From IMG/VR virus record IMGVR_UViG_2681813154_000010: a DNA stretch of 15,799 nucleotides; one strand, written 5' to 3'. The stretch's first letter is position 1, and each line of letters begins with the position of its first letter. Under the pieces are notes generated by a model. The model was given only the letters and a program-made list of their open reading frames with translations, was not told the origin of the DNA and did not search any database. This document shows, in pieces, positions 1-6,858 of the stretch. Both the position numbers and the translations under genes were made by a program. Origin of the DNA: a virus (Duplodnaviria; Heunggongvirae; Uroviricota; Caudoviricetes).

Positions 1-1230
1 ATGAGCAGAGCACTTAACAAACTGAGCGATACACAGCTGAGGAAAATCAACGGCACACCCGCCCAAAAAACAGCCTTTCTTAATGACGGTGGAAACCTGA
101 GCGTCAGGCATTCAACCAGTGGCCTTTTAACCTGGTATTTCACTTACAGGGCCGGAACGGGAAGGGGGGCACCACCGGAACGCATTAAGCTGGGAAATTA
201 TCCTGATCTGAGCCTGAAATCAGCCAGGGAAAAAGCCGCCCAGTGTCGCGCATGGCTGGCAGAGGGGAAAAATCCACGTCATGAGCTTAATTACACCGTA
301 CAGGAAGCGTTAAAGCCGGTAACGGTTGGCGATGCGCTCACCTACTGGCTTGAGTCGTACGCAAAGGAAAACCGCGTGGATTATGCCGCCCTGAAAAAGC
401 GCCTTAATAATCACGTAATACAGCACATTGGTGCTATGCCGCTGGATAAATGCGAGCTACGGCACTGGCTGGCCTGTTTTGACCAGGTGGCAAAGCGAAC
501 GCCTGTTACTGCCGGATTCTTGCTACAGACGTGCAAACAGGCGCTTAAGTTCTGCCGGAGGCGGCGCTATGCAATCAGCAACGTTCTTGATGATATGAGT
601 GTGGCGGACGTTGGGAAAAAACCGGATATAAGCGAGCGTGTCTTAAGCACCAAAGAACTGGGCGAATTATTGCAGGCACTGGACAAAAAAATATTCTCCC
701 CCTACTACATCGCGTTAATCCGCCTCCTGATTGTGTTCGGATGCCGGACGGTAGAACTGAGGTTATCGGAGATCAGCGAGTGGGATTTTACCGAAATGCT
801 CTGGACCGTGCCGAAAGAACACAGCAAAACGAAGGTGGCAATATTCCGGCCCATACCGGAAGCAATACTGCCGTTCGTCACGCAGCTGGTGGAGCAGAAC
901 AGGCACACGGGCTTATTGCTGGGGGAAGTGAAACAGGAAACAAGCGTGTCGCAGTACGGCAGATTAGCGCACAGGAGGCTAAATCACCCTCACTGGTCAC
1001 TACATGACATCCGGCGCACCTTTACAACGATGCTGAACGATTTAGGCGTGGATCCTCACGTCGTGGAGCAGCTTACAGGCCACCAGATGCCAGGAATGCA
1101 GCGAGTTTATAATCATTCCCGTTATCTGGATGCTAAACGCAATGCGCTGGATATGTGGACGGAGCGGTTAGGGATACTGGCGGGAACACATGAAAACGTA
1201 ACCACGCTACCAGTAGCCAGAAGAAAATAA
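1..1230 (+). CDS. int: Tyrosine recombinase / phage integrase (P4-type family), 409 aa
   Basis: Full ORF from ATG at position 1; C-terminal catalytic region with HDIRRT ... GHQ ... VYNHSRY (R, H-x-x-R, Y pattern of tyrosine recombinases); first gene of the element, followed by alpA as in CP4-57-like islands. Confidence 0.9.
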   Translation: MSRALNKLSDTQLRKINGTPAQKTAFLNDGGNLSVRHSTSGLLTWYFTYRAGTGRGAPPERIKLGNYPDLSLKSAREKAAQCRAWLAEGKNPRHELNYTVQEALKPVTVGDALTYWLESYAKENRVDYAALKKRLNNHVIQHIGAMPLDKCELRHWLACFDQVAKRTPVTAGFLLQTCKQALKFCRRRRYAISNVLDDMSVADVGKKPDISERVLSTKELGELLQALDKKIFSPYYIALIRLLIVFGCRTVELRLSEISEWDFTEMLWTVPKEHSKTKVAIFRPIPEAILPFVTQLVEQNRHTGLLLGEVKQETSVSQYGRLAHRRLNHPHWSLHDIRRTFTTMLNDLGVDPHVVEQLTGHQMPGMQRVYNHSRYLDAKRNALDMWTERLGILAGTHENVTTLPVARRK

Positions 1231-1604
1231 TTTTTTTCGTGTTTTTTCAGTATGCGCATACTGGATATGCGAACAGATACAACGTGCAACAATGAGCAAC
1301 AATGCGGAACAACTACGAACAAGAGGTGAAAAAGTGTACAGATTTATAAGTAGCTGATTTTTAATGTGTTACTGATTTTTTATACACTAGCGAATCACTC
1401 TTTAAATAGCGAGAAAAAAGGCATGAAACAATATTTTATGCCTTTGTATTAACATGAATTTAAAGGATTTTATCCTGATTATTCCTCTTTCTGTAAACCA
1501 TACGGCCTCAACATTTGCCAACTCTGAATCATCCTGACACAATCAGACACATCCCAACGCAATAGAACACGAAATAACTCTTTAAGAAACGAAAGGGGGC
1601 AATA
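1231..1604 (+). promoter_or_regulatory. AT-rich int-alpA intergenic control region with a perfect 10-bp palindrome TATGCGCATA (1251..1260) and tandem CAACAATG / GAACAA repeats (1286..1322)
   Basis: Read directly: palindrome at 1251..1260; gcaacaatg at 1286..1294 and 1296..1304; gaacaa at 1307..1312 and 1317..1322. No ORF with a credible RBS in 374 bp. Confidence 0.4.
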
Positions 1605-1793
1605 GTGTTAAGCACTGATCGGTTTATACGTGAAAAAGAATGCGAAAAGCTAACAGGCCTTAGCCGCTCATGCCGCTACCGCCTGGAAAAGGCCGGACAA
1701 TTCCCATCACGTCGTAAACTTGGCGGTCGTTCCGTTGGCTGGTCTTTATCCGAGGTTCTGGCCTGGAAGGATAGCTGCAAGGCAGTTCATTAA
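1605..1793 (+). CDS. alpA: AlpA-family (prophage CP4-57 regulator-like) DNA-binding transcriptional regulator / putative excision activator, 62 aa
   Basis: GTG start preceded by AAGGGGG; translation contains the AlpA-family core LTGLSRS..YRL...G.FP....LGGRSVGW...EV..W; followed by GC hairpin 1801..1817 without a U-run. Confidence 0.85.
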   Translation: MLSTDRFIREKECEKLTGLSRSCRYRLEKAGQFPSRRKLGGRSVGWSLSEVLAWKDSCKAVH

Positions 1794-1939
1794 TCACGCT
1801 GGCGGCACGCAGCCGCCACACATCAATCATCTGAACACAGAGCTATAACCATGAAGATTGAATATACGCCAGAACGTGGGCGGGGATTCGTTCGCCCTGG
1901 TGAAACTGGAAAACCACAAAATTGGGGTTTTTCAGGCAT

Positions 1940-1968
1940 AAAAAAAGCGGCCCCGAAATGGAGCCGCC
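1940..1968 (-). terminator. Rho-independent terminator for a leftward transcript
   Basis: On the minus strand: stem GCGGCUCC / GGGGCCGC (8 bp, one G-U wobble), 5-nt loop, then seven U (plus-strand A-run 1940..1946). The same hairpin is poorer on the plus strand (C-A mismatch) and has no U-run there. Confidence 0.6.
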
Positions 1969-2062
1969 TTTCTGAACAGATAACCCGCTGCGCCGTTTGT
2001 GTGTGTGATCCCAAACATAAGCACGGGGATGATAGCCGCTATCAGGCTGGTGGGCAATGCAA

Positions 2063-2239
2063 TCAGTCTGGTTCAGTGCGTTGCCATAACTGCGAAGTTC
2101 TCTCCTTTGATGAGTATTCTTTAAGGTACTTCTCAAGGGCAAAAGAACACGGCGCGAATCGTTCTGATTCATGCTCTTTCTTTCTGCGTCGTCTTTTTCG
2201 TGCAGGTGATGTTTTTTCGGTTGATTCTTCGTTGGTCAT
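2063..2239 (-). CDS. Hypothetical small basic protein (58 aa, MTNEESTEKTSPARKRRRRKKEHE...) in the leftward unit; may instead be part of a non-coding RNA
   Basis: ORF translated by hand from the reverse complement; lies upstream of the minus-strand terminator; weak RBS; below the ORF-track length cutoff. Confidence 0.25.
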   Translation of the reverse strand: MTNEESTEKTSPARKRRRRKKEHESERFAPCSFALEKYLKEYSSKERTSQLWQRTEPD

Positions 2240-2299
2240 TGTGTGCGCCTGTAAAGCAATGCGCCGTAGTACCTCACACCACGGCGCTGATAGTTTTTA

Positions 2300-2401
2300 T
2301 CCTTTGGGTTCTATGCCGCGTTGCTGTAATTCTTTGCGGATTATTCGCTTTATCCAGGCAGCAAGAGAATCATCGCCGTCCTGTTGTTGTGCCTTTTCCA
2401 T
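2300..2401 (-). CDS. Hypothetical small protein (33 aa, MEKAQQQDGDDSLAAWIKRIIRKELQQRGIEPKG)
   Basis: Hand-translated minus-strand ORF with GGGAAAAG upstream of the ATG; sits next to the divergent promoter region at about 2400..2500. Confidence 0.25.
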
Positions 2402-2469
2402 CTTTTCCCGTAAGTCAGGATCTAAACGGAACTGGAACGGAGGATTACCACGCCTTTCGTTTTTGTGTG

Positions 2470-2499
2470 TTGACACGTTAATTACACCTCAGGTAATGT
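2470..2499 (+). promoter_or_regulatory. Putative sigma70 promoter (TTGACA-N18-TAATGT) for the rightward small-gene/primase operon, flanked by direct TGACAC repeats
   Basis: TTGACA at 2470..2475, TAATGT at 2494..2499; TGACAC at 2471..2476 and 2512..2517 are possible operator half-sites; a GC hairpin (GCCCCG ... CGGGGC) at about 2544..2574 lies in the leader. Confidence 0.35.
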
Positions 2500-2605
2500 A
2501 TTTATGTGTAGTGACACATTACACACAATCAACACAAAAAGCAAAGCCCCGCACTGTAGGAGCAGTAACGGGGCTTCTAACCAACAACGTAAACTAGGAG
2601 CCGTT

Positions 2606-2806
2606 ATGGTTGCCGTAAATCATATACCACACCTTGTACACACACAAACGGCCTTTGTGTGGCGTTTTCTGGCACTGAGTGCCGGAGAATCCCAAATCAT
2701 CCACGTAACCGCTTGGACGGAACGCGAAGCGCGTAGCCGTTGCCCGTCCGGTTGTGTTGCTGTATTCGCCGCCCGTATTCGTCAGGGGGAAACCTATGCA
2801 CAATAA
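2606..2806 (+). CDS. Hypothetical protein, 66 aa
   Basis: ATG at 2606 preceded by AGGAG (2596..2600); internal start within ORF-track entry 2504..2806; first gene of a run of overlapping, same-strand small genes. Confidence 0.55.
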   Translation: MVAVNHIPHLVHTQTAFVWRFLALSAGESQIIHVTAWTEREARSRCPSGCVAVFAARIRQGETYAQ

Positions 2807-3017
2807 AACCACACCGAACGCAGCAGCCGCCGCACTCACTACGCTGATGCACGCGCTTATTGATATTGAATGCACGGCAGAGCTTGCGCAGGGAGAAGAA
2901 CAGAAAGACCGGACACAGTTCGCCCTGGAATGTATCCGATACATCGCAACGCGGTCACTGAATGACGCTAAAAATATTCTTGTTGCCGATTGTGAAAATG
3001 GGGGGGGTTATGCGTGA
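2796..3017 (+). CDS. Hypothetical protein, 73 aa (MHNKTTPNAAAAALTTLMHALIDIECTAELAQ...)
   Basis: ATG at 2796 preceded by GGGGGA; overlaps the upstream gene by 11 nt, consistent with translational coupling; in frame with ORF-track entry 2754..3017. Confidence 0.5.
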   Translation: MHNKTTPNAAAAALTTLMHALIDIECTAELAQGEEQKDRTQFALECIRYIATRSLNDAKNILVADCENGGGYA

Positions 3018-3162
3018 TGATCGTTTTAATTCCCTGAAACAGGAATTTTCCGGCGTTCCTGATGATGCGGCTGATGCGCTTTCGTCAATGCCAGAACTTA
3101 TTAGAGCGGCTTTTTTCTTACTTTCCACGAGAGAATATAAATCAACGGGCTTGATGTACTGA
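3010..3162 (+). CDS. Hypothetical protein, 50 aa (MRDDRFNSLKQEFSGVPDDAADALSSMPELIRAAFF...)
   Basis: ATG at 3010 overlaps the upstream stop (ATGCGTGATGA), after a G7 run acting as RBS; in frame with ORF-track entry 2962..3162. Confidence 0.45.
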   Translation: MRDDRFNSLKQEFSGVPDDAADALSSMPELIRAAFFLLSTREYKSTGLMY

Positions 3163-3231
3163 ATATCGCCGCCGATTATGCTGATTTCGTGACAGAGGTT
3201 ATTTTAAGAAAAACGACGGACGGGGATTAAT

Positions 3232-3465
3232 ATGCGTGATATTTACCACGAAACAATAGACCGCGCATTTCTTGCACTTTCTCACAGTGAAAACATGCTG
3301 GAAATATTGCGCATATGGCTTGAAACACTTGGCGACAATGAACGCGACAAACAAAAATCAAGAATTGCCACGGCATTAATAACGCTTCTTGAGCCTGTAA
3401 TAATGGAACTGCAAGAAATAGATCTATTGCACGACAGATATAAAGAACAACACACCGGAGAATAA
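3232..3465 (+). CDS. Hypothetical protein, 77 aa
   Basis: ATG at 3232 preceded by GGGGA 6 nt upstream; same strand as the operon. Confidence 0.6.
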   Translation: MRDIYHETIDRAFLALSHSENMLEILRIWLETLGDNERDKQKSRIATALITLLEPVIMELQEIDLLHDRYKEQHTGE

Positions 3466-3470
3466 AAATA

Positions 3471-3770
3471 ATGAAACTTAAATATTCTGGCTTAACTGCC
3501 AGTGGCAACACTCACCCTAAATTTACGCGCGGTGATATTTACCGCGACCAGTACGGCGGCATGGTAACGATTAAAGGCGTGGCAGAACGGCGCATCACCT
3601 ACCGCCGTGAAGGTTACGAATATGATTGCGTGATGCCTGTTTATCAATTCCGGCGTGATTTCACGCTGGTACAGGCAGCGCCCCGCAGTAAACCAACCAG
3701 CAGGGAGAAAGCACGCGCCAATATTCAGGAAATAAAAAAGATGCTTAACGTATTCAGGGGTAAAAAATGA
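3471..3770 (+). CDS. Hypothetical protein, 99 aa
   Basis: ATG at 3471 preceded by GGAGA; stop overlaps the primase start (ATGA at 3767..3770). Confidence 0.6.
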   Translation: MKLKYSGLTASGNTHPKFTRGDIYRDQYGGMVTIKGVAERRITYRREGYEYDCVMPVYQFRRDFTLVQAAPRSKPTSREKARANIQEIKKMLNVFRGKK

Positions 3771-5515
3771 AACTGGCACCGAACGTAAAAAAACAGCCAC
3801 GCGGAATAAAACACAAAGACACAGAGGTAATTATCTTTGCGGGTAGTGATGCCTGGTCGCACGCGAAACAATGGCAGGAGCAGGATGGCCCCGCATCCGG
3901 CGATAATGTGCCGCCTGTGTGGCTTGGGCCAAATCAGCTTGCCGAACTTGATGCACTGAAAATTGTTCCGGATGGAAAAAAACGCGTAAGGCTGTACCAG
4001 GCCGGAGAACTGGATTTGGTGGAGACCAAAAAGATTGGTCAGAAGCTGGCGGCGGCAGATATTCAGGACGCAAATTTTTACCCCGAAGGAATGCACGTCC
4101 AGAAGTGTGAAAACTGGCGGCGCTATCTGAATGCTGAGCGTGAAAATATTGCCGCAGGGCTTACCATGCCGGAGCAGAAAAATACGCAACTGGCACAAAT
4201 GGCAGACAGTGAGCGCGCGCAGCTGCTTGCCGAGCGCTTTGATGGCGTTTGTGTGCATCAGGAAAGTGAAATCGTTCACGTATGGCGCGGCGGGGTATGG
4301 TGTCCGGTCAGCACAATGGAACTTAGCCGCGAAATGGTGGTGATCTATTCAGAGCACAGGGCCACTTTCAGCAAGCGCGTAATCAATAACGCCGTGGAAG
4401 CGTTAAAAGTTATTGCCGAACCAATGGGCGAGCCGTCCGGCGATTTGCTGCCGTTCGCCAATGGTGCGCTTGACCTGAAAACGGGGGAATTTTCCCCGCA
4501 CACGCCGGAGAACTGGATCACCACGCACAACGGCATTGAGTACACGCCACCAGCACCAGGGGAGAACATCCGCGATAACGCGCTAAACTTTCATAAATGG
4601 CTTGAGCACGCAGCCGGAAAAGACCAGCGCAAGATGATGCGTATATGTGCCGCGCTGTACATGATTATGGCGAACCGGTACGACTGGCAGATGTTTATTG
4701 AGGCCACCGGAGACGGCGGGAGCGGTAAAAGTACATTCACACACATAGCCAGCCTTCTGGCAGGGAAACAGAACACGGTAAGCGCTGAAATGACATCGCT
4801 TGATGATGCTGGTGGACGTGCGCAGGTTGTCGGGAGTCGTCTTATCGTCCTGGCTGACCAGCCGAAATATACAGGCGAAGGAACGGGCATCAAGAAAATC
4901 ACGGGCGGTGACCCCGTGGAAATTAACCCGAAATACGAAAAGCGTTTCACGGCTGTAATCAGGGCGGTGGTGCTGGCGACCAACAATAACCCGATGATAT
5001 TCACCGAACGGGCCGGAGGTGTGGCACGTCGTCGCGTGATTTTCCGTTTCGACAATATCGTTAGTGAGGCCGAAAAAGACAGGGAGCTACCGGAAAAGAT
5101 TGCGGCTGAAATCCCTGTCATTATCCGCCGATTGCTGGCGAACTTTACCGACTCTGAGAAAGCACGGGCTTTACTACTGGAACAGCGTGACGGTGATGAA
5201 GCTCTGGCAATAAAGCAACAGACGGATCCGGTTATTGAGTTTTGCCAGTTCCTGAATTTTCTGGAGGAAGCACGCGGCCTGATGATGGGCGGCGGTGGCG
5301 ATTCAGTGAAGTACACGACCAGAAACAGCCTTTACCGCGTCTATCTGGCGTTTATGGCGTACGCAGGCAGGAGCAAACCGCTAAACGTAAATGACTTTGG
5401 CAAGGCTATGAAGCCAGCCGCGAAAGTTTACGGACATGAATATATTACGCGGAAAGTTAAGGGAGTAACGCAGACTAACGCAATAACAACAGACGAGTGC
5501 GACGCGTTTTTATAA
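3767..5515 (+). CDS. P4-family phage/plasmid primase with C-terminal SF3-type helicase/NTPase domain (Pri-Rep-like replication initiator), 582 aa
   Basis: Walker A motif GDGGSGKST in the C-terminal half; size and position (after alpA, before an iteron array) match satellite primase-replicase genes. Confidence 0.85.
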   Translation: MKLAPNVKKQPRGIKHKDTEVIIFAGSDAWSHAKQWQEQDGPASGDNVPPVWLGPNQLAELDALKIVPDGKKRVRLYQAGELDLVETKKIGQKLAAADIQDANFYPEGMHVQKCENWRRYLNAERENIAAGLTMPEQKNTQLAQMADSERAQLLAERFDGVCVHQESEIVHVWRGGVWCPVSTMELSREMVVIYSEHRATFSKRVINNAVEALKVIAEPMGEPSGDLLPFANGALDLKTGEFSPHTPENWITTHNGIEYTPPAPGENIRDNALNFHKWLEHAAGKDQRKMMRICAALYMIMANRYDWQMFIEATGDGGSGKSTFTHIASLLAGKQNTVSAEMTSLDDAGGRAQVVGSRLIVLADQPKYTGEGTGIKKITGGDPVEINPKYEKRFTAVIRAVVLATNNNPMIFTERAGGVARRRVIFRFDNIVSEAEKDRELPEKIAAEIPVIIRRLLANFTDSEKARALLLEQRDGDEALAIKQQTDPVIEFCQFLNFLEEARGLMMGGGGDSVKYTTRNSLYRVYLAFMAYAGRSKPLNVNDFGKAMKPAAKVYGHEYITRKVKGVTQTNAITTDECDAFL

Positions 5516-5520
5516 TTTTT

Positions 5521-5760
5521 TGTAATTGCTGTCTACCCTGTCTACCTGAGTAAAGAAAAATACATTTAATTCAGTGCATTAAGTTAGGTAGATAGCCTTT
5601 TTTTACTGTCTACCCACTATCTACCCTCTCTACCTGATTTTACCTGAATCAGACAGGGAGGTAGACACGGGGTAGATAGTGGATAAAAGCACTCTACCCC
5701 GCTGAAAGCAGCGCCATTACTGGCATGAGGGCCACTAAGGTAGATAAGGTAGACAAGGGG
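5521..5760. repeat. Iteron-type replication origin: more than 12 copies of GTCTACC / GGTAGAC-like 7-9-mers in both orientations plus an AT-rich stretch
   Basis: Read directly: tgtctaccctgtctacct (5530..5547), ggtagatag (5588..5596), gtctaccc / atctaccc / tctctacct (5608..5636), ggtagacac and gggtagatag (5660..5679), ggtagataaggtagaca (5739..5755); AT-rich 5552..5590; immediately downstream of the primase gene. Confidence 0.6.
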
Positions 5761-5803
5761 AGGCACAACTCAAAACTTTTTAAACGAGGGGGTAAAAATA
5801 AAT

Positions 5804-6082
5804 ATGCACACTTCAGGGAAATTTAATAAATCATTCAAAAAACGCAGAGACAGAACAGAACCGAAATATCGCGCGTTAGACATGACAGAGCACGCTTTAA
5901 AGGTGGCAATCAGAACGATAGACCGCCACGCGGGGGAAGGATACGCGAAAGCACATCCCGAACTGATAAGCGCATTCATGACCACGACGGCGGCAAATTT
6001 TGCCACGCTGACAGAGCGGGAGATTGCCGAAGCGGAACAGGTAACAACAATCAACGTTAAAACCGGAGAGGTGGAATCATGA
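5804..6082 (+). CDS. Hypothetical protein, 92 aa (start uncertain; alternative ATG at 5881)
   Basis: ORF downstream of GAGGGGG (5785..5791); stop overlaps the next start (TCATGA). Confidence 0.5.
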   Translation: MHTSGKFNKSFKKRRDRTEPKYRALDMTEHALKVAIRTIDRHAGEGYAKAHPELISAFMTTTAANFATLTEREIAEAEQVTTINVKTGEVES

Positions 6083-6384
6083 GCGAACCAAAATTTGGTG
6101 AAAAATTTTACAAGCACAACGGACGGATCACGATTCTGCAAATAAGCGCAGCTACACCAGGCTGGTGGGTTGAAACAGACGAAGGATCCTCACCCGTGGC
6201 ATCATGGGAGCTTTGTGTGCTTAGTTACCCTGACCGCGATGTGTATCAGGATATTCTGCCTGTGATATCCACTGACAAAGGCATGAAACCCGTAGACATC
6301 AAAAACATGGGGTTTCAGTGCGTAATGCTCACTGAAAAAATGATGGAAGAGATGAAAAAGAACAATGCCGGATCGCTTCACTGA
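6079..6384 (+). CDS. Hypothetical protein, 101 aa
   Basis: Start overlaps the upstream stop (translational coupling); no recognisable family motif. Confidence 0.5.
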   Translation: MSEPKFGEKFYKHNGRITILQISAATPGWWVETDEGSSPVASWELCVLSYPDRDVYQDILPVISTDKGMKPVDIKNMGFQCVMLTEKMMEEMKKNNAGSLH

Positions 6385-6393
6385 GGTGGCAAT

Positions 6394-6555
6394 ATGACAG
6401 CACAAATTGCAGCTTACGGGCAGCTGGTGGGCGACCCGCTGGTAAAACAGAGCAGCAAGGGCACACCGGAGCCGCCAACGGAGAACTACGCAGACCTGAG
6501 AAATGCAGTAAATCGCACTTACGCAGACATGGGGCTGAGCAAATTAGCAGAGTAG
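6394..6555 (+). CDS. Hypothetical small protein, 53 aa (MTAQIAAYGQLVGDPLVKQSSKGTPEPPTENYADLRNAVNRTYADMGLSKLAE)
   Basis: ATG at 6394 preceded by GAGGTGG; below the ORF-track cutoff and translated by hand; followed by a terminator. Confidence 0.45.
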   Translation: MTAQIAAYGQLVGDPLVKQSSKGTPEPPTENYADLRNAVNRTYADMGLSKLAE

Positions 6556-6577
6556 GAATATCAGAACCACACCACGC

Positions 6578-6605
6578 AGCCGGAGCAATCCGGCTTTTTG
6601 TTATT
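6578..6605 (+). terminator. Rho-independent terminator ending the primase/small-gene operon
   Basis: Stem AGCCGGA / TCCGGCT (7 bp), loop GCAA, then TTTTTGTTATTTTTT. Confidence 0.65.
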
Positions 6606-6620
6606 TTTTGTAAATTATTT

Positions 6621-6666
6621 GTTCGTGGTTGTTCCACGTTGTTCACTGAGCGGATCGGCATATTTT
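6621..6666 (+). promoter_or_regulatory. Putative packaging-operon promoter with three TTGTTC repeats at 10-bp phasing (TTGTTC-N16-TATTTT)
   Basis: TTGTTCgtggTTGTTCcacgTTGTTC at 6619..6644; TATTTT at 6661..6666; about 200 bp upstream of the capsid gene. Confidence 0.35.
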
Positions 6667-6720
6667 ACCCGAACTGAATCATGATTATTCTCGCCCGTGG
6701 TGCCAGGACGCTGGGGCCAC

Positions 6721-6768
6721 TTTCCCGCCTGTTAATGTGCTCGCCAATATTCATTACCAGGCGGGAAA
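6721..6768 (+). promoter_or_regulatory. 11-bp perfect inverted repeat (TTTCCCGCCTG ... CAGGCGGGAAA) with 26-nt spacer in the packaging-operon leader
   Basis: Arms at 6721..6731 and 6758..6768 are exact reverse complements; no U-run follows, so not a classic terminator; candidate operator or RNA stem-loop. Confidence 0.35.
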
Positions 6769-6858
6769 ACGATCGGTGCGATTACTGATTTCCTTATGAA
6801 AAACGGTTGAGTGTTTGCCGCGTCCTGGAGTTCCTTACTTAACCCCAGGACTTTTTTT

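What the first reader, a model, noticed from the sequence alone, without database searches (positions are those of the whole stretch)
6619..6644. GAACAA/TTGTTC repeat motif recurs at three control points of the element
TTGTTC occurs three times at 10-bp phasing over the putative packaging-operon -35 region (6619..6644). An identical 15-mer TTGTTCCACGTTGTT recurs at 14206..14220 near the phoQ-proximal end. The reverse-complement motif (GAACAA / CAACAATG) is tandemly repeated in the int-alpA intergenic region (1286..1322). Helically phased short repeats at an early promoter, a late promoter and an element end suggest one DNA-binding protein, plausibly AlpA acting as excision factor and activator, or the integrase arm domain, coordinating excision with packaging-gene expression. 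An exact 15-mer match twice in 15.8 kb has roughly a one-in-ten chance expectation, so this is suggestive only.
Basis: inference. Interest (0 to 1): 0.5.

Follow-up and report, generated by a model that had tools for sequence, protein, structure and literature searches.

The report
Phased TTGTT operator of a phage satellite
The repeated TTGTTC words are real and conserved: they form a one-turn-spaced binding array found next to both recombination sites, upstream of the alpA regulator gene and in front of the capsid genes of a capsid-forming phage satellite. The array is most likely the landing pad of the small AlpA excisionase/activator, a known kind of control whose site had not been mapped for this family in the papers I could search.

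Summary
The window is a capsid-forming PICI (EcCIEDL933 family) inserted beside phoQ.

**Observation: confirmed.** TTGT-N6-TTGT-N6-TTGT occurs 5 times in the window against 0.002 expected. In seven related elements it occurs 37 times inside the element and 0 times in 69 kb of flanks.

**Two repeat systems, not one:**
- **Motif A:** core TTGT(T)(C) in 3-6 units at 10-bp phasing. It lies at 1273-1322 (- strand), 6598-6648 and 14196-14225. A fourth array sits upstream of int, outside the window.
- **Motif B:** GGTGTAGTTAAT x2 at 14239-14262, and again upstream of int.

**Who binds what:**
- Motif B changes with the integrase N-terminal arm-binding sheet, so B is the integrase arm site and A is not.
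- The origin repeats downstream of the replication gene change with the replication protein, while A does not.
- AlpA is the only recognised DNA-binding protein shared by all these elements, and its model resembles solved excisionases.

**Best reading (0.6):** AlpA binds A as a phased multimer. It would direct excision at both att arms, autoregulate at alpA, and activate a weak capsid-operon promoter about 20 bp downstream of 6644. No binding was tested.

**Novelty:** the kind of system is known (P4 Vis, TorI, RdfS), so this is a new member. Interest is moderate.

The parts
1273..1322 (-). Motif A array 2: five 10-bp units read on the - strand (TTGTTCGTAG TTGTTCCGCA TTGTTGCTCA TTGTTGCACG TTGTATCTGT). 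It lies 43-92 bp after the int stop and about 285 bp before the alpA start.
   Evidence: It is present with 5-6 units, conserved cores and divergent spacers in all loci whose AlpA has the LSRSCRYRLEK helix. It is absent from loci with the L008-type alpA region.
6598..6648 (+). Motif A array 3: TTGTTATTTT TTGTAAATTAT TTGTTCGTGG TTGTTCCACG TTGTTCACTG. It lies directly after the terminator of the replication operon and in front of the capsid/packaging operon.
   Evidence: The block TTTTGTAAATTAT plus the array is conserved in two cf-PICI lineages whose flanks have diverged. It is found in 443 of 5426 complete E. coli genomes and is always intergenic. It is absent from the classical PICIs L006 and L007.
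14196..14225 (+). Motif A array 4 (P arm of attP): TTGTGTCTAT TTGTTCCACG TTGTTTCATA.
   Evidence: It is conserved in L001, L002 and L006-L009. Its first unit starts 43 bp before motif B, as in the other arm; in L008 the P-arm distance is 33 bp.
14239..14262 (+). Motif B: doubled 12-bp repeat GGTGTAGTTAAT GGTGTAGTCAAT. Proposed integrase arm-type sites.
   Evidence: In L001, L002 and L007 its centre lies 88.5-91 bp before and 142-144.5 bp after the core centre. The sequence changes with the Int N-terminal sheet. P4 has the same architecture in its annotated attP arm repeats, and so does the HE-PICI doubled motif.
14331..14340 (+). att core identity block GGACATATTT (attR), overlapping the phoQ stop codon.
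   Evidence: the same 10-mer lies at both ends of the element in L002.
1605..1793 (+). alpA: a 62-aa winged-helix protein, the proposed binder of motif A.
   Evidence: PF05930, E 5e-18. PHROG 'excisionase and transcriptional regulator'. AF2 model with pLDDT 87. The best PDB fold match is the GIsul2 excisionase 8C3T (TM 0.79/0.86); RdfS, Pukovnik Xis and TorI also match.
1..1230 (+). int: a P4-type tyrosine integrase with an Arm-DNA-bind_3 N-domain, the proposed binder of motif B.
   Evidence: It is 100% identical to the L002 Int.
6578..6600 (+). Intrinsic terminator AGCCGGAGCAATCCGGCT plus a T run, ending the replication operon just before array 3.
   Evidence: Relatives carry two copies with about 340 bp between them.
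6664..6691 (+). Candidate weak late promoter: TTTACC, 16 bp, TATTCT.
   Evidence: It is below the scan threshold. Both hexamers and their spacing recur as TTTACA-16-TATGTT in the diverged L009/L133/L134 lineage, at about the same distance from the array. This is an inference.
1515..1552 (+). Candidate alpA promoter TTGCCA-17-CACAAT. Its -10 overlaps two A-like units (CACAA at 1538, CACAT at 1548).
   Evidence: The hexamers are conserved in L002 and L006. L002 has TTGTGTCGTATTGTT at the same place on the - strand. Tentative.

Best explanation
The TTGTTC words are units of a 10-bp-phased direct-repeat operator with core TTGT(T)(C). The most likely binder is AlpA, the element's 62-aa winged-helix protein, bound head-to-tail with one monomer per helical turn.

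The element uses this operator in four places:
1. and 2. In both arms of the attachment site, an array of 3-4 units sits just upstream of a doubled integrase arm-type site (GGTGTAGTTAAT x2). Here AlpA would act as the recombination directionality factor that shapes the excisive complex.
3. Between int and alpA, a 5-6-unit array would mediate the published AlpA autoactivation.
4. In capsid-forming PICIs only, a 3-5-unit array lies between the terminator of the replication operon and a weak promoter-like site. From about -56 to -76 the AlpA multimer would switch on the capsid, protease, portal and terminase genes.

Induction of alpA by a helper phage would therefore trigger excision and particle production through one DNA word.

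**Shown here:** the arrays, their statistics, their conservation, their fixed architecture, and that neither the integrase arm specificity nor the replication protein tracks them.

**Inferred:** that AlpA is the binder, and how activation works.
For: **The motif is real and element-specific.** See; across seven elements there are 37 triple-phased arrays inside the elements and 0 in 69 kb of flanks.

**Unit logo.** In 36 distinct units, positions 1-4 carry 1.8-2.0 bits and positions 8-10 carry 0.2-0.3 bits. Natural variants of array 3 change mostly spacer positions.

**Architecture.** A-then-B modules point the same way in both arms at fixed distances, in elements inserted at three different chromosomal sites.

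**Motif B tracks the integrase, not motif A.**
- GTTAAT goes with SVRHSTSGLL.
- GTCACT goes with SV(Q/K)YLTSGKL.
- TGTATTGCA goes with the 42%-identical HE-PICI Int.
- AlpA and motif A stay unchanged throughout.

**Origin repeats track the replication protein.** The repeats downstream of the replication gene are GGTAGAYA, TGCGGGTTA or AAAGTGGGG depending on the protein, while A is constant.

**AlpA as the candidate.**
- AlpA and Int are the only recognised DNA-binding proteins shared by all these elements.
- AlpA is PF05930, like P4 Vis. Its model matches solved excisionases.

**Literature.**
- An alpA mutant abolishes induction of EcCIEDL933 (10.1101/2022.09.08.507074).
- TorI sites are GTTCG pentamers at a 10-bp period next to the -35 of PintS, with IntS arm sites downstream (PMC2951348; sequence).
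- Winged-helix excisionases and relatives (Xis, BldC, RdfS) bind head-to-tail, about one DNA turn apart, and can regulate promoters (PMC11963761).
Against: - There is no binding or expression data for this motif.
- There is no positive covariation. AlpA alleles with a different recognition helix (VCRTTRYEMEK in L008 and L067; a third allele in L095 and L097) still sit with TTGTTC arrays. The assignment therefore rests on elimination and analogy.
- Loci with the L008-type alpA region lack array 2.
- AlpA had no effect on a Pint fusion in EcCICFT073, although an A array lies upstream of int.
- Several small conserved proteins of unknown function are also shared and cannot be excluded: DUF4222 (3471-3770), phrog_1231 (5804-6082) and phrog_1561 (13261-13542).
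- In array 3 the spacers are nearly as conserved as the cores, which also fits a larger composite site or recent spread of the block.
- Array 2 is far from the likely alpA promoter and inverted relative to it.
Confidence: 0.6

Rival explanations
1. Motif A is bound by some other protein: an uncharacterised conserved satellite protein, the still unidentified helper-phage inducer of alpA, or a host factor. AlpA would then act elsewhere or only as a partner.
For: Several small proteins of unknown function are shared by all elements that carry motif A. The helper-phage inducer of alpA is unknown. The motif does not change when the AlpA recognition helix changes. Direct repeats at a 10-bp period are also typical of other activators, such as lambda CII (TTGC-N6-TTGC; own knowledge).
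Against: None of those proteins has a recognisable DNA-binding domain. A helper or host factor does not explain arrays placed at fixed distance beside the integrase arm sites in both att arms, or their complete absence from flanking DNA. The motif does not fit the PhoP, ArcA, IHF, Fis or DnaA site patterns in core or period (own knowledge, compared by eye).
Confidence: 0.22
2. Motif A is an integrase arm-type site.
For: Int has an Arm-DNA-bind_3 domain. Two of the four arrays lie in the att arms.
Against: A different doubled 12-bp motif occupies the positions where P4 has its annotated arm repeats and where HE-PICIs have their doubled motif. That motif changes with the Int N-terminal sheet, while motif A is unchanged across three Int classes, including a 42%-identical Int. 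Arrays 2 and 3 lie 1.4 kb and about 7 kb from the core.
Confidence: 0.06
3. Motif A is a set of replication iterons, like the TGTTCACC repeats of P4 that the alpha protein binds at ori and at crr next to attP.
For: P4 type I iterons (TGTTCACC) resemble TTGTTCAC. They lie between vis and sid and beside attP, a layout similar to arrays 3 and 4.
Against: Each element has a separate iteron field downstream of its replication gene, and that field changes with the replication protein: window GGTAGAYA at 5520-5760, L002 TGCGGGTTA, L007 AAAGTGGGG. TTGTT stays constant across D5-type, DUF927 and RepA-type proteins.
Confidence: 0.04
4. The repeats are leftovers of sequence duplication or chance and have no present function.
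For: A single exact 15-mer pair is near chance level. The window holds other chance-level 13-16-nt repeats. 6616-6653 and 14203-14240 are 71% alike, which could reflect an old duplication.
Against: The statistics. The core-versus-spacer conservation. The block is retained while its flanks diverged. The arrays sit at fixed positions in elements inserted at different chromosomal sites.
Confidence: 0.03

Closest known systems
Satellite phage P4: Vis (excisionase and late-promoter regulator) with P4 Int and the attP arm repeats
   Same: Vis is in the same Pfam family as AlpA, PF05930. From my own knowledge of Cali et al. 2004, Vis binds between int and the attP core, is needed for excision and also regulates the late promoters. 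The P4 attP has doubled 12-bp arm repeats pointing the same way in both arms, like motif B.
   Different: The P4 region has no 10-bp-phased TTGTT array. Its arm repeat is TTGGGGGCAT. Its late genes are activated by Delta/Ogr-type proteins, and Vis mainly represses PLL. P4 has no capsid genes of its own.
KplE1 (CPS-53) prophage: TorI and IntS on attL
   Same: Three pentamers recognised by the directionality factor (GTTCG, GTTCG, GATCG) lie at a 10-bp period upstream of the integrase arm sites, in front of an inward-pointing int gene that has the same Arm-DNA-bind_3 domain. The core resembles TGTTC.
   Different: TorI is not a PF05930 member. Its known regulatory role is repression of PintS. No TorI-type array is known at a structural-gene promoter.
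Winged-helix proteins that form phased multimers on DNA: lambda Xis, Streptomyces BldC, Mesorhizobium RdfS
   Same: These small MerR-like winged-helix proteins bind head-to-tail about one DNA turn apart. RdfS binds attP directly upstream of an Int arm site and also binds its own promoter, where it coordinates rdfS/intS expression. The AlpA model matches RdfS, Xis and TorI folds.
   Different: RdfS and Xis show little sequence consensus, whereas this motif has a sharp 4-5-bp core. AlpA lacks the extra N-terminal helix of RdfS.
Doubled attP motif of helper-embedded PICIs (Tommasini, Mageeney and Williams 2023)
   Same: tgTGTATTGCa x2 lies 81 bp upstream and 132 bp downstream of the attP centre, with both copies pointing the same way. 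Motif B has the same architecture here, at about 89-91 bp before and 142-144 bp after the core centre.
   Different: That paper could not decide between the Int arm domain and AlpA, and reported that this particular motif was not found in other PICIs. Here a differently spelled doubled motif is found, and it changes with the Int N-terminal sheet. The adjacent TTGTT arrays are not mentioned in the passages of that paper I read.
Pseudomonas aeruginosa AlpA (Q-like antiterminator)
   Same: Only the name, plus a regulator site in a promoter followed by a terminator-like hairpin.
   Different: That protein extends to at least residue 142, has a 21Q-like fold and recognises GGGACG between the -35 and -10. 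The 62-aa protein here is a winged-helix excisionase relative.

Membership tests
Capsid-forming PICI (cf-PICI, EcCIEDL933 type) | int, alpA and a replication gene, plus its own HK97-type capsid, protease, portal, connectors, HNH, TerS and TerL; no tail genes; about 15 kb. | tested here: met
   Pfam hits. Same gene order and same roxA/phoQ insertion as the O157:H7 element L002. Definition from 10.1101/2022.09.08.507074.
Operator of a PF05930 (AlpA/Vis) excisionase-regulator | The element encodes a PF05930 winged-helix protein with an excisionase-like fold. | tested here: met
   PF05930, E 5e-18. Fold matches 8C3T, 8DGL, 4J2N and 1Z4H.
Operator of a PF05930 (AlpA/Vis) excisionase-regulator | Sites lie in the att arms next to integrase arm-type sites, between int and the core. 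| tested here: met
   The A array starts 43 bp (33 bp in the L008 P arm) before the doubled B motif in both arms. The int-proximal arm lies outside the window but is present in the 99.98%-identical L003.
Operator of a PF05930 (AlpA/Vis) excisionase-regulator | The protein binds the repeats, and excision or transcription depends on them. | not testable with these tools
   Needs EMSA or footprinting, reporter assays and site mutants. The literature shows AlpA-dependent autoactivation and excision but maps no site.
Operator of a PF05930 (AlpA/Vis) excisionase-regulator | The motif changes when the recognition helix of the protein changes. | tested here: inconclusive
   Three AlpA alleles with different helices all co-occur with TTGTTC. 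No relative with a clearly different phased motif was found.
Integrase arm-type sites (motif A as candidate) | The site sequence follows the specificity of the Int N-terminal arm-binding domain. | tested here: not met
   Motif A is unchanged across three Int N-domain classes, while motif B changes with them.
Integrase arm-type sites (motif B as candidate) | Repeats in both arms at fixed distance from the core, following the Int N-domain. | tested here: met
   Same architecture as the annotated P4 arm repeats.
Replication-origin iterons (P4 alpha type I-like) | Iterons lie beside the replication gene and change with the replication protein. | tested here: not met
   Separate iteron fields downstream of the replication gene change with the protein; TTGTT does not.
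Lambda CII-type activator site (direct repeats flanking the -35) | A CII-like activator is encoded and the repeats straddle the -35 hexamer. | tested here: not met
   No CII-like protein among the ORFs scanned. The conserved -35-like hexamer lies 17-19 bp downstream of the last unit.
Q-like antitermination by P. aeruginosa AlpA | A 21Q-like protein that reaches at least residue 142, with a GGGACG element between the -35 and -10. | tested here: not met
   The protein here is a 62-aa winged helix. Family definition from PMC9371919.

The most novel reading that the evidence does not exclude
The late (capsid and packaging) promoter of capsid-forming PICIs may have been built by reusing the directionality-factor array of the att arm. 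Array 3 shares whole units with the P-arm arrays of two lineages (TTGTTCGTGG with L008, TTGTTCCACG with the window). AlpA would then be a single-word master switch whose phased multimer both assembles the excisive complex and acts as an upstream activator of particle genes. Classical PICIs lack this array, so acquiring it may have been the regulatory step that made a self-encoded capsid module usable.
Probability: 0.3. Interest if true: 0.6.

Novelty: new member of a known kind. Interest (0 to 1): 0.45.

Why it matters
AlpA is the master switch of Gram-negative PICIs, but none of the papers I could read maps its DNA target. The 2023 HE-PICI study explicitly left open whether the integrase or AlpA binds the att-arm repeats. 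The separation made here gives a concrete and cheap set of experiments:
- TTGTT arrays for AlpA
- the doubled 12-mer for the integrase arm domain
- a separate iteron field for the replication protein

It also proposes how capsid-forming PICIs time capsid production with excision. In addition it supplies a defined, portable promoter-operator block (6598-6691) for engineering satellite-based delivery particles.

Tried and rejected
- **P. aeruginosa AlpA antitermination model.** Rejected: it is an unrelated, much larger 21Q-like protein with a GGGACG site.
- **P4-type replication iterons.** Rejected on covariation.
- **Scan of genome contigs with AlpA.** Gave only 3 loci. The two distant ones (L004, L005) showed no informative phased arrays near alpA.
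- **IMG/VR scan for TTGTTC-N4-TTGTTC-N4-TTGTTC.** 29 carried homologues of the window's proteins, nearly all PICI-like. The rest were perfect 10-mer tandem repeats or an unrelated group (TTGTTCCCAGTTGTTCCGAGTTGTTC) with no AlpA in the DNA fetched; I did not pursue them.
- **Dyad CGTGG-N5-CCACG inside array 3.** Considered as a site for a dimeric protein. It is not general to the other arrays, so I dropped it.
- **Host-factor patterns (PhoP, ArcA, IHF, Fis, DnaA).** Compared by eye only. Core or period does not fit.
- **CP4-57 (the namesake AlpA).** It shows a doubled TAGGCCCA motif upstream of intA but no phased array, so it did not help to assign motif A.
- **Antisense promoter.** No convincing promoter reading from array 2 into int was found (own reading of the sequence).

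Full report
**What the window is.**
- Pfam scans identify the + strand genes. These are int (1-1230, with Arm-DNA-bind_3 and Phage_integrase domains), alpA (1605-1793, PF05930), a DUF4222 gene and a D5-type primase-helicase (3767-5515). A PerC-like ORF (6394-6555) follows. Then come an HK97-type capsid, protease and portal, a head-closure protein, a connector, HNH, TerS and TerL.
- phoQ lies on the - strand at 14339-15799 (annotated as phoQ at the matching place in L002; the window aligns to L002 through this stretch).
- There are no tail genes. This is a capsid-forming PICI as defined for EcCIEDL933.
- Its Int is 100% identical to that of the O157:H7 element L002, which sits at the same roxA/phoQ site.
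- The closest relative fetched is in Shigella flexneri (L003), 99.98% identical over 1-6599.

**The observation.**
- The hexamer alone is not enriched: 14 copies against 10.9 expected. One exact 15-mer pair is near chance.
- The phased composite is not chance:
  - TTGTT-N5-TTGTT with at most one mismatch gives 13 matches against 1.8 expected, and no shuffle reaches that.
  - Three TTGT cores at 10-bp spacing occur 5 times against 0.002 expected.
- In seven related elements such triple arrays occur 37 times inside the element (93 kb) and never in 69 kb of flanking chromosome or prophage.

**There are two repeat systems and four sites.**
- Motif A has the unit T-T-G-T-(T)-(C)-(C/G)-n-n-n. In 36 distinct units, positions 1-4 carry 1.8-2.0 bits and positions 8-10 carry 0.2-0.3 bits.
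- Relatives show a fourth array between attL and the int start codon. That lies outside this window.
- Motif B is a doubled 12-mer, GGTGTAGTTAAT GGTGTAGTCAAT, at 14239-14262. It recurs just upstream of int.
- The att core is GGACATATTT, at 14331-14340 in the window.
- In L001, L002 and L007, which are inserted in tqsA, at phoQ and at abgR/smrA, the doubled B motif is centred 88.5-91 bp before and 142-144.5 bp after the core centre. The A array begins 43 bp before B in both arms. Both composite modules point the same way.

**Which protein reads which repeat.**
- Motif B changes with the integrase:
  - GTTAAT goes with the N-terminal strand SVRHSTSGLL (window, L002, L003, L006, L007, L008).
  - GTCACT goes with SV(Q/K)YLTSGKL (L001, L009). 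AlpA in L001 is 100% identical to the window's.
  - The helper-embedded element L027, whose Int is only 42% identical, has TGTGTATTGCA x2 at the same place.
- That last motif is the one Tommasini et al. described. They could not assign it to either Int or AlpA.
- P4, whose arm repeats are annotated, has the same layout of doubled 12-mers pointing the same way. Motif B is therefore the integrase arm-type site. An arm domain has one specificity, so motif A is not that site.
- P4's alpha-protein iterons (TGTTCACC) look like TTGTTCAC and are laid out similarly, so I tested the iteron idea. Each element has its own iteron field downstream of the replication gene, and the field changes with the replication protein:
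  - window GGTAGAYA at 5520-5760
  - L002 (DUF927 protein) TGCGGGTTA
  - L007 (RepA-type protein) AAAGTGGGG
  
  Motif A does not change. That excludes the replication protein.
- Among proteins shared by all elements that carry motif A, only Int and AlpA have recognisable DNA-binding domains.

**AlpA as the binder.**
- AlpA is a PF05930 protein like P4 Vis.
- Its model (pLDDT 87) best matches the GIsul2 excisionase 8C3T (TM 0.79/0.86). It also matches RdfS, Pukovnik Xis, TorI and MerR-type N-domains.
- Proteins of this fold bind direct repeats head-to-tail, about one helical turn apart. RdfS does so directly upstream of an Int arm site and also at its own promoter.
- The TorI sites of KplE1 are GTTCG-type pentamers at a 10-bp period. 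They abut the -35 of the promoter of an inward-pointing int gene, and the IntS arm sites follow. That is the same order of elements as here.
- Published genetics fits. [quoted passage not shown] An alpA mutant blocks EcCIEDL933 induction. The PICMI AlpA was modelled as TorI/Xis-like and proposed to act in the excision complex.
- None of these papers maps a binding site. My searches of the held library found no description of this motif.

**The array in front of the capsid genes.**
- It follows an intrinsic terminator (6578-6595 plus a T run) that ends the replication operon.
- No consensus sigma-70 promoter is called there.
- Two cf-PICI lineages whose flanks have diverged share three things:
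  - the block TTTTGTAAATTAT plus the array
  - a -35-like TTTAC(C/A), 17-19 bp after the last unit
  - a -10-like TAT(T/G)(C/T)T, 16 bp further on
  
  In the window these hexamers are at 6664-6669 and 6686-6691.
- This places the three strong units near -56, -66 and -76. That is upstream of the -35, not on it.
- Natural variants change mainly spacer positions. In L134 both changes are in spacers. In L133 there are four changes, of which only one falls in the TTGT core.
- The block occurs in 443 of 5426 complete E. coli genomes and is always intergenic.
- It co-occurs with three AlpA alleles, several replication proteins and even the distant HE-PICI integrase.
- The classical PICIs EcCICFT073 (L006) and L007 keep the other three arrays but lack this one. 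It therefore belongs to the self-encoded capsid module.

**Weak points.**
- Nothing here shows binding.
- The AlpA assignment rests on elimination and analogy. AlpA alleles with different recognition helices still accompany TTGTTC, so there is no positive covariation.
- Loci with the L008-type alpA region lack array 2.
- AlpA did not affect a Pint fusion in EcCICFT073.
- Array 2 is inverted and lies about 200-270 bp upstream of the likely alpA promoter.
- Shared small proteins of unknown function cannot be excluded.
- I put AlpA at 0.6, another protein at about 0.2, and the integrase, iteron and no-function readings at a few percent each.

**Verdict.**
A single factor at several control points is well supported. 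AlpA is favoured. The integrase arm domain is contradicted. The positions relative to promoters need correction.
- The principle is established for P4 Vis, TorI, RdfS, Cox and Apl: a directionality factor that doubles as a transcription regulator through phased direct repeats. This is therefore a new member of a known kind.
- Its value is a specific, testable operator map for the PICI master regulator.

Noticed in passing
window, whole; e.g. 885, 2046, 4808, 6161, 6423, 8472, 8600, 9604, 12875 (+) and 4547, 8105, 10049, 14065 (-): Chi sites (GCTGGTGG) are strongly enriched: 13 in 15.8 kb against 0.5 expected, and 0 of 200 shuffles reach that. Six related PICIs carry 10-15 each (about 1 per kb), against about 1 per 4.3 kb in their flanks. 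This may protect linear replication or packaging intermediates from RecBCD in an element with no recognised Gam-like inhibitor. A library search found no report of this for PICIs.
   Followed up: partly
window 13792-13826 (+): A second, unrelated phased array: GTGAC x4 at exact 10-bp spacing (GTGACGGAGAGTGACAACCAGTGACACACCGTGAC), downstream of the last gene. It is conserved in L007, L008, L009, L041, L048, L106, L111 and L114, and absent from L001, L002 and L006. Function unknown.
   Followed up: partly
window 7684-7686: The major capsid gene (6859-8016) carries an in-frame TGA where relatives have TGG (W276*), so this copy probably cannot make its own capsid.
   Followed up: yes
window 10112-10192, 10411-10466, 11265-11306: Three runs of N (masked sequence) lie inside the head-closure/connector region and at the start of terS. 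ORF calls across them are unreliable.
   Followed up: yes
window 6578-6600, compared with L001 9199-9585, L002 9711-10085 and L003: Relatives have two copies of the terminator AGCCGGAG(C/A)AATCCGGCT, with about 340 bp between them holding a 74-aa ORF and a tiny ORF annotated 'trigger factor'. The window has one copy and lacks the segment, as expected from recombination between the copies.
   Followed up: partly
window 5520-5760: Likely replication origin: about 12 copies of GGTAGA(C/T)A in both orientations around AT-rich DNA, downstream of the primase gene. Relatives with other replication proteins have different iterons at the same place.
   Followed up: yes
window 1248-1263 and 1412-1446: A perfect 16-bp palindrome, CAGTATGCGCATACTG, lies just after the int stop. 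A conserved hairpin, AAAAAAGGCAT-N13-ATGCCTTT, lies upstream of alpA, preceded by the conserved stretch TTTTTATACACTAGCGAATCACTCTT. These could belong to the unknown helper-phage control of alpA.
   Followed up: no
window 6721-6768 and 6826-6858: The capsid leader holds a 17-bp-arm inverted repeat (94% complementary). It also holds a second hairpin, GTCCTGG-N11-CCAGGAC, followed by T7 and ending directly before the ATG. The AGGA ribosome-binding site lies in its 3' arm. This may be an attenuator or a translational control. It is conserved in L001 and L002 but not in the L009 lineage.
   Followed up: no
L027 (IMG/VR 2778261094_000010), reverse strand 3571-4041: This helper-embedded cf-PICI has two AlpA paralogues in tandem after int. 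Only the second keeps the LSRS-R type recognition helix. Robust TTGTTC phasing is seen only at its capsid promoter, not beside its integrase arm sites.
   Followed up: partly
L132 (E. coli K-12 CP4-57) 690-745: The namesake AlpA prophage also has a doubled motif (TAGGCCCA twice, 12 bp apart, plus an inverted copy) just upstream of intA. Doubled 12-bp arm sites may be general for P4-type integrases.
   Followed up: no
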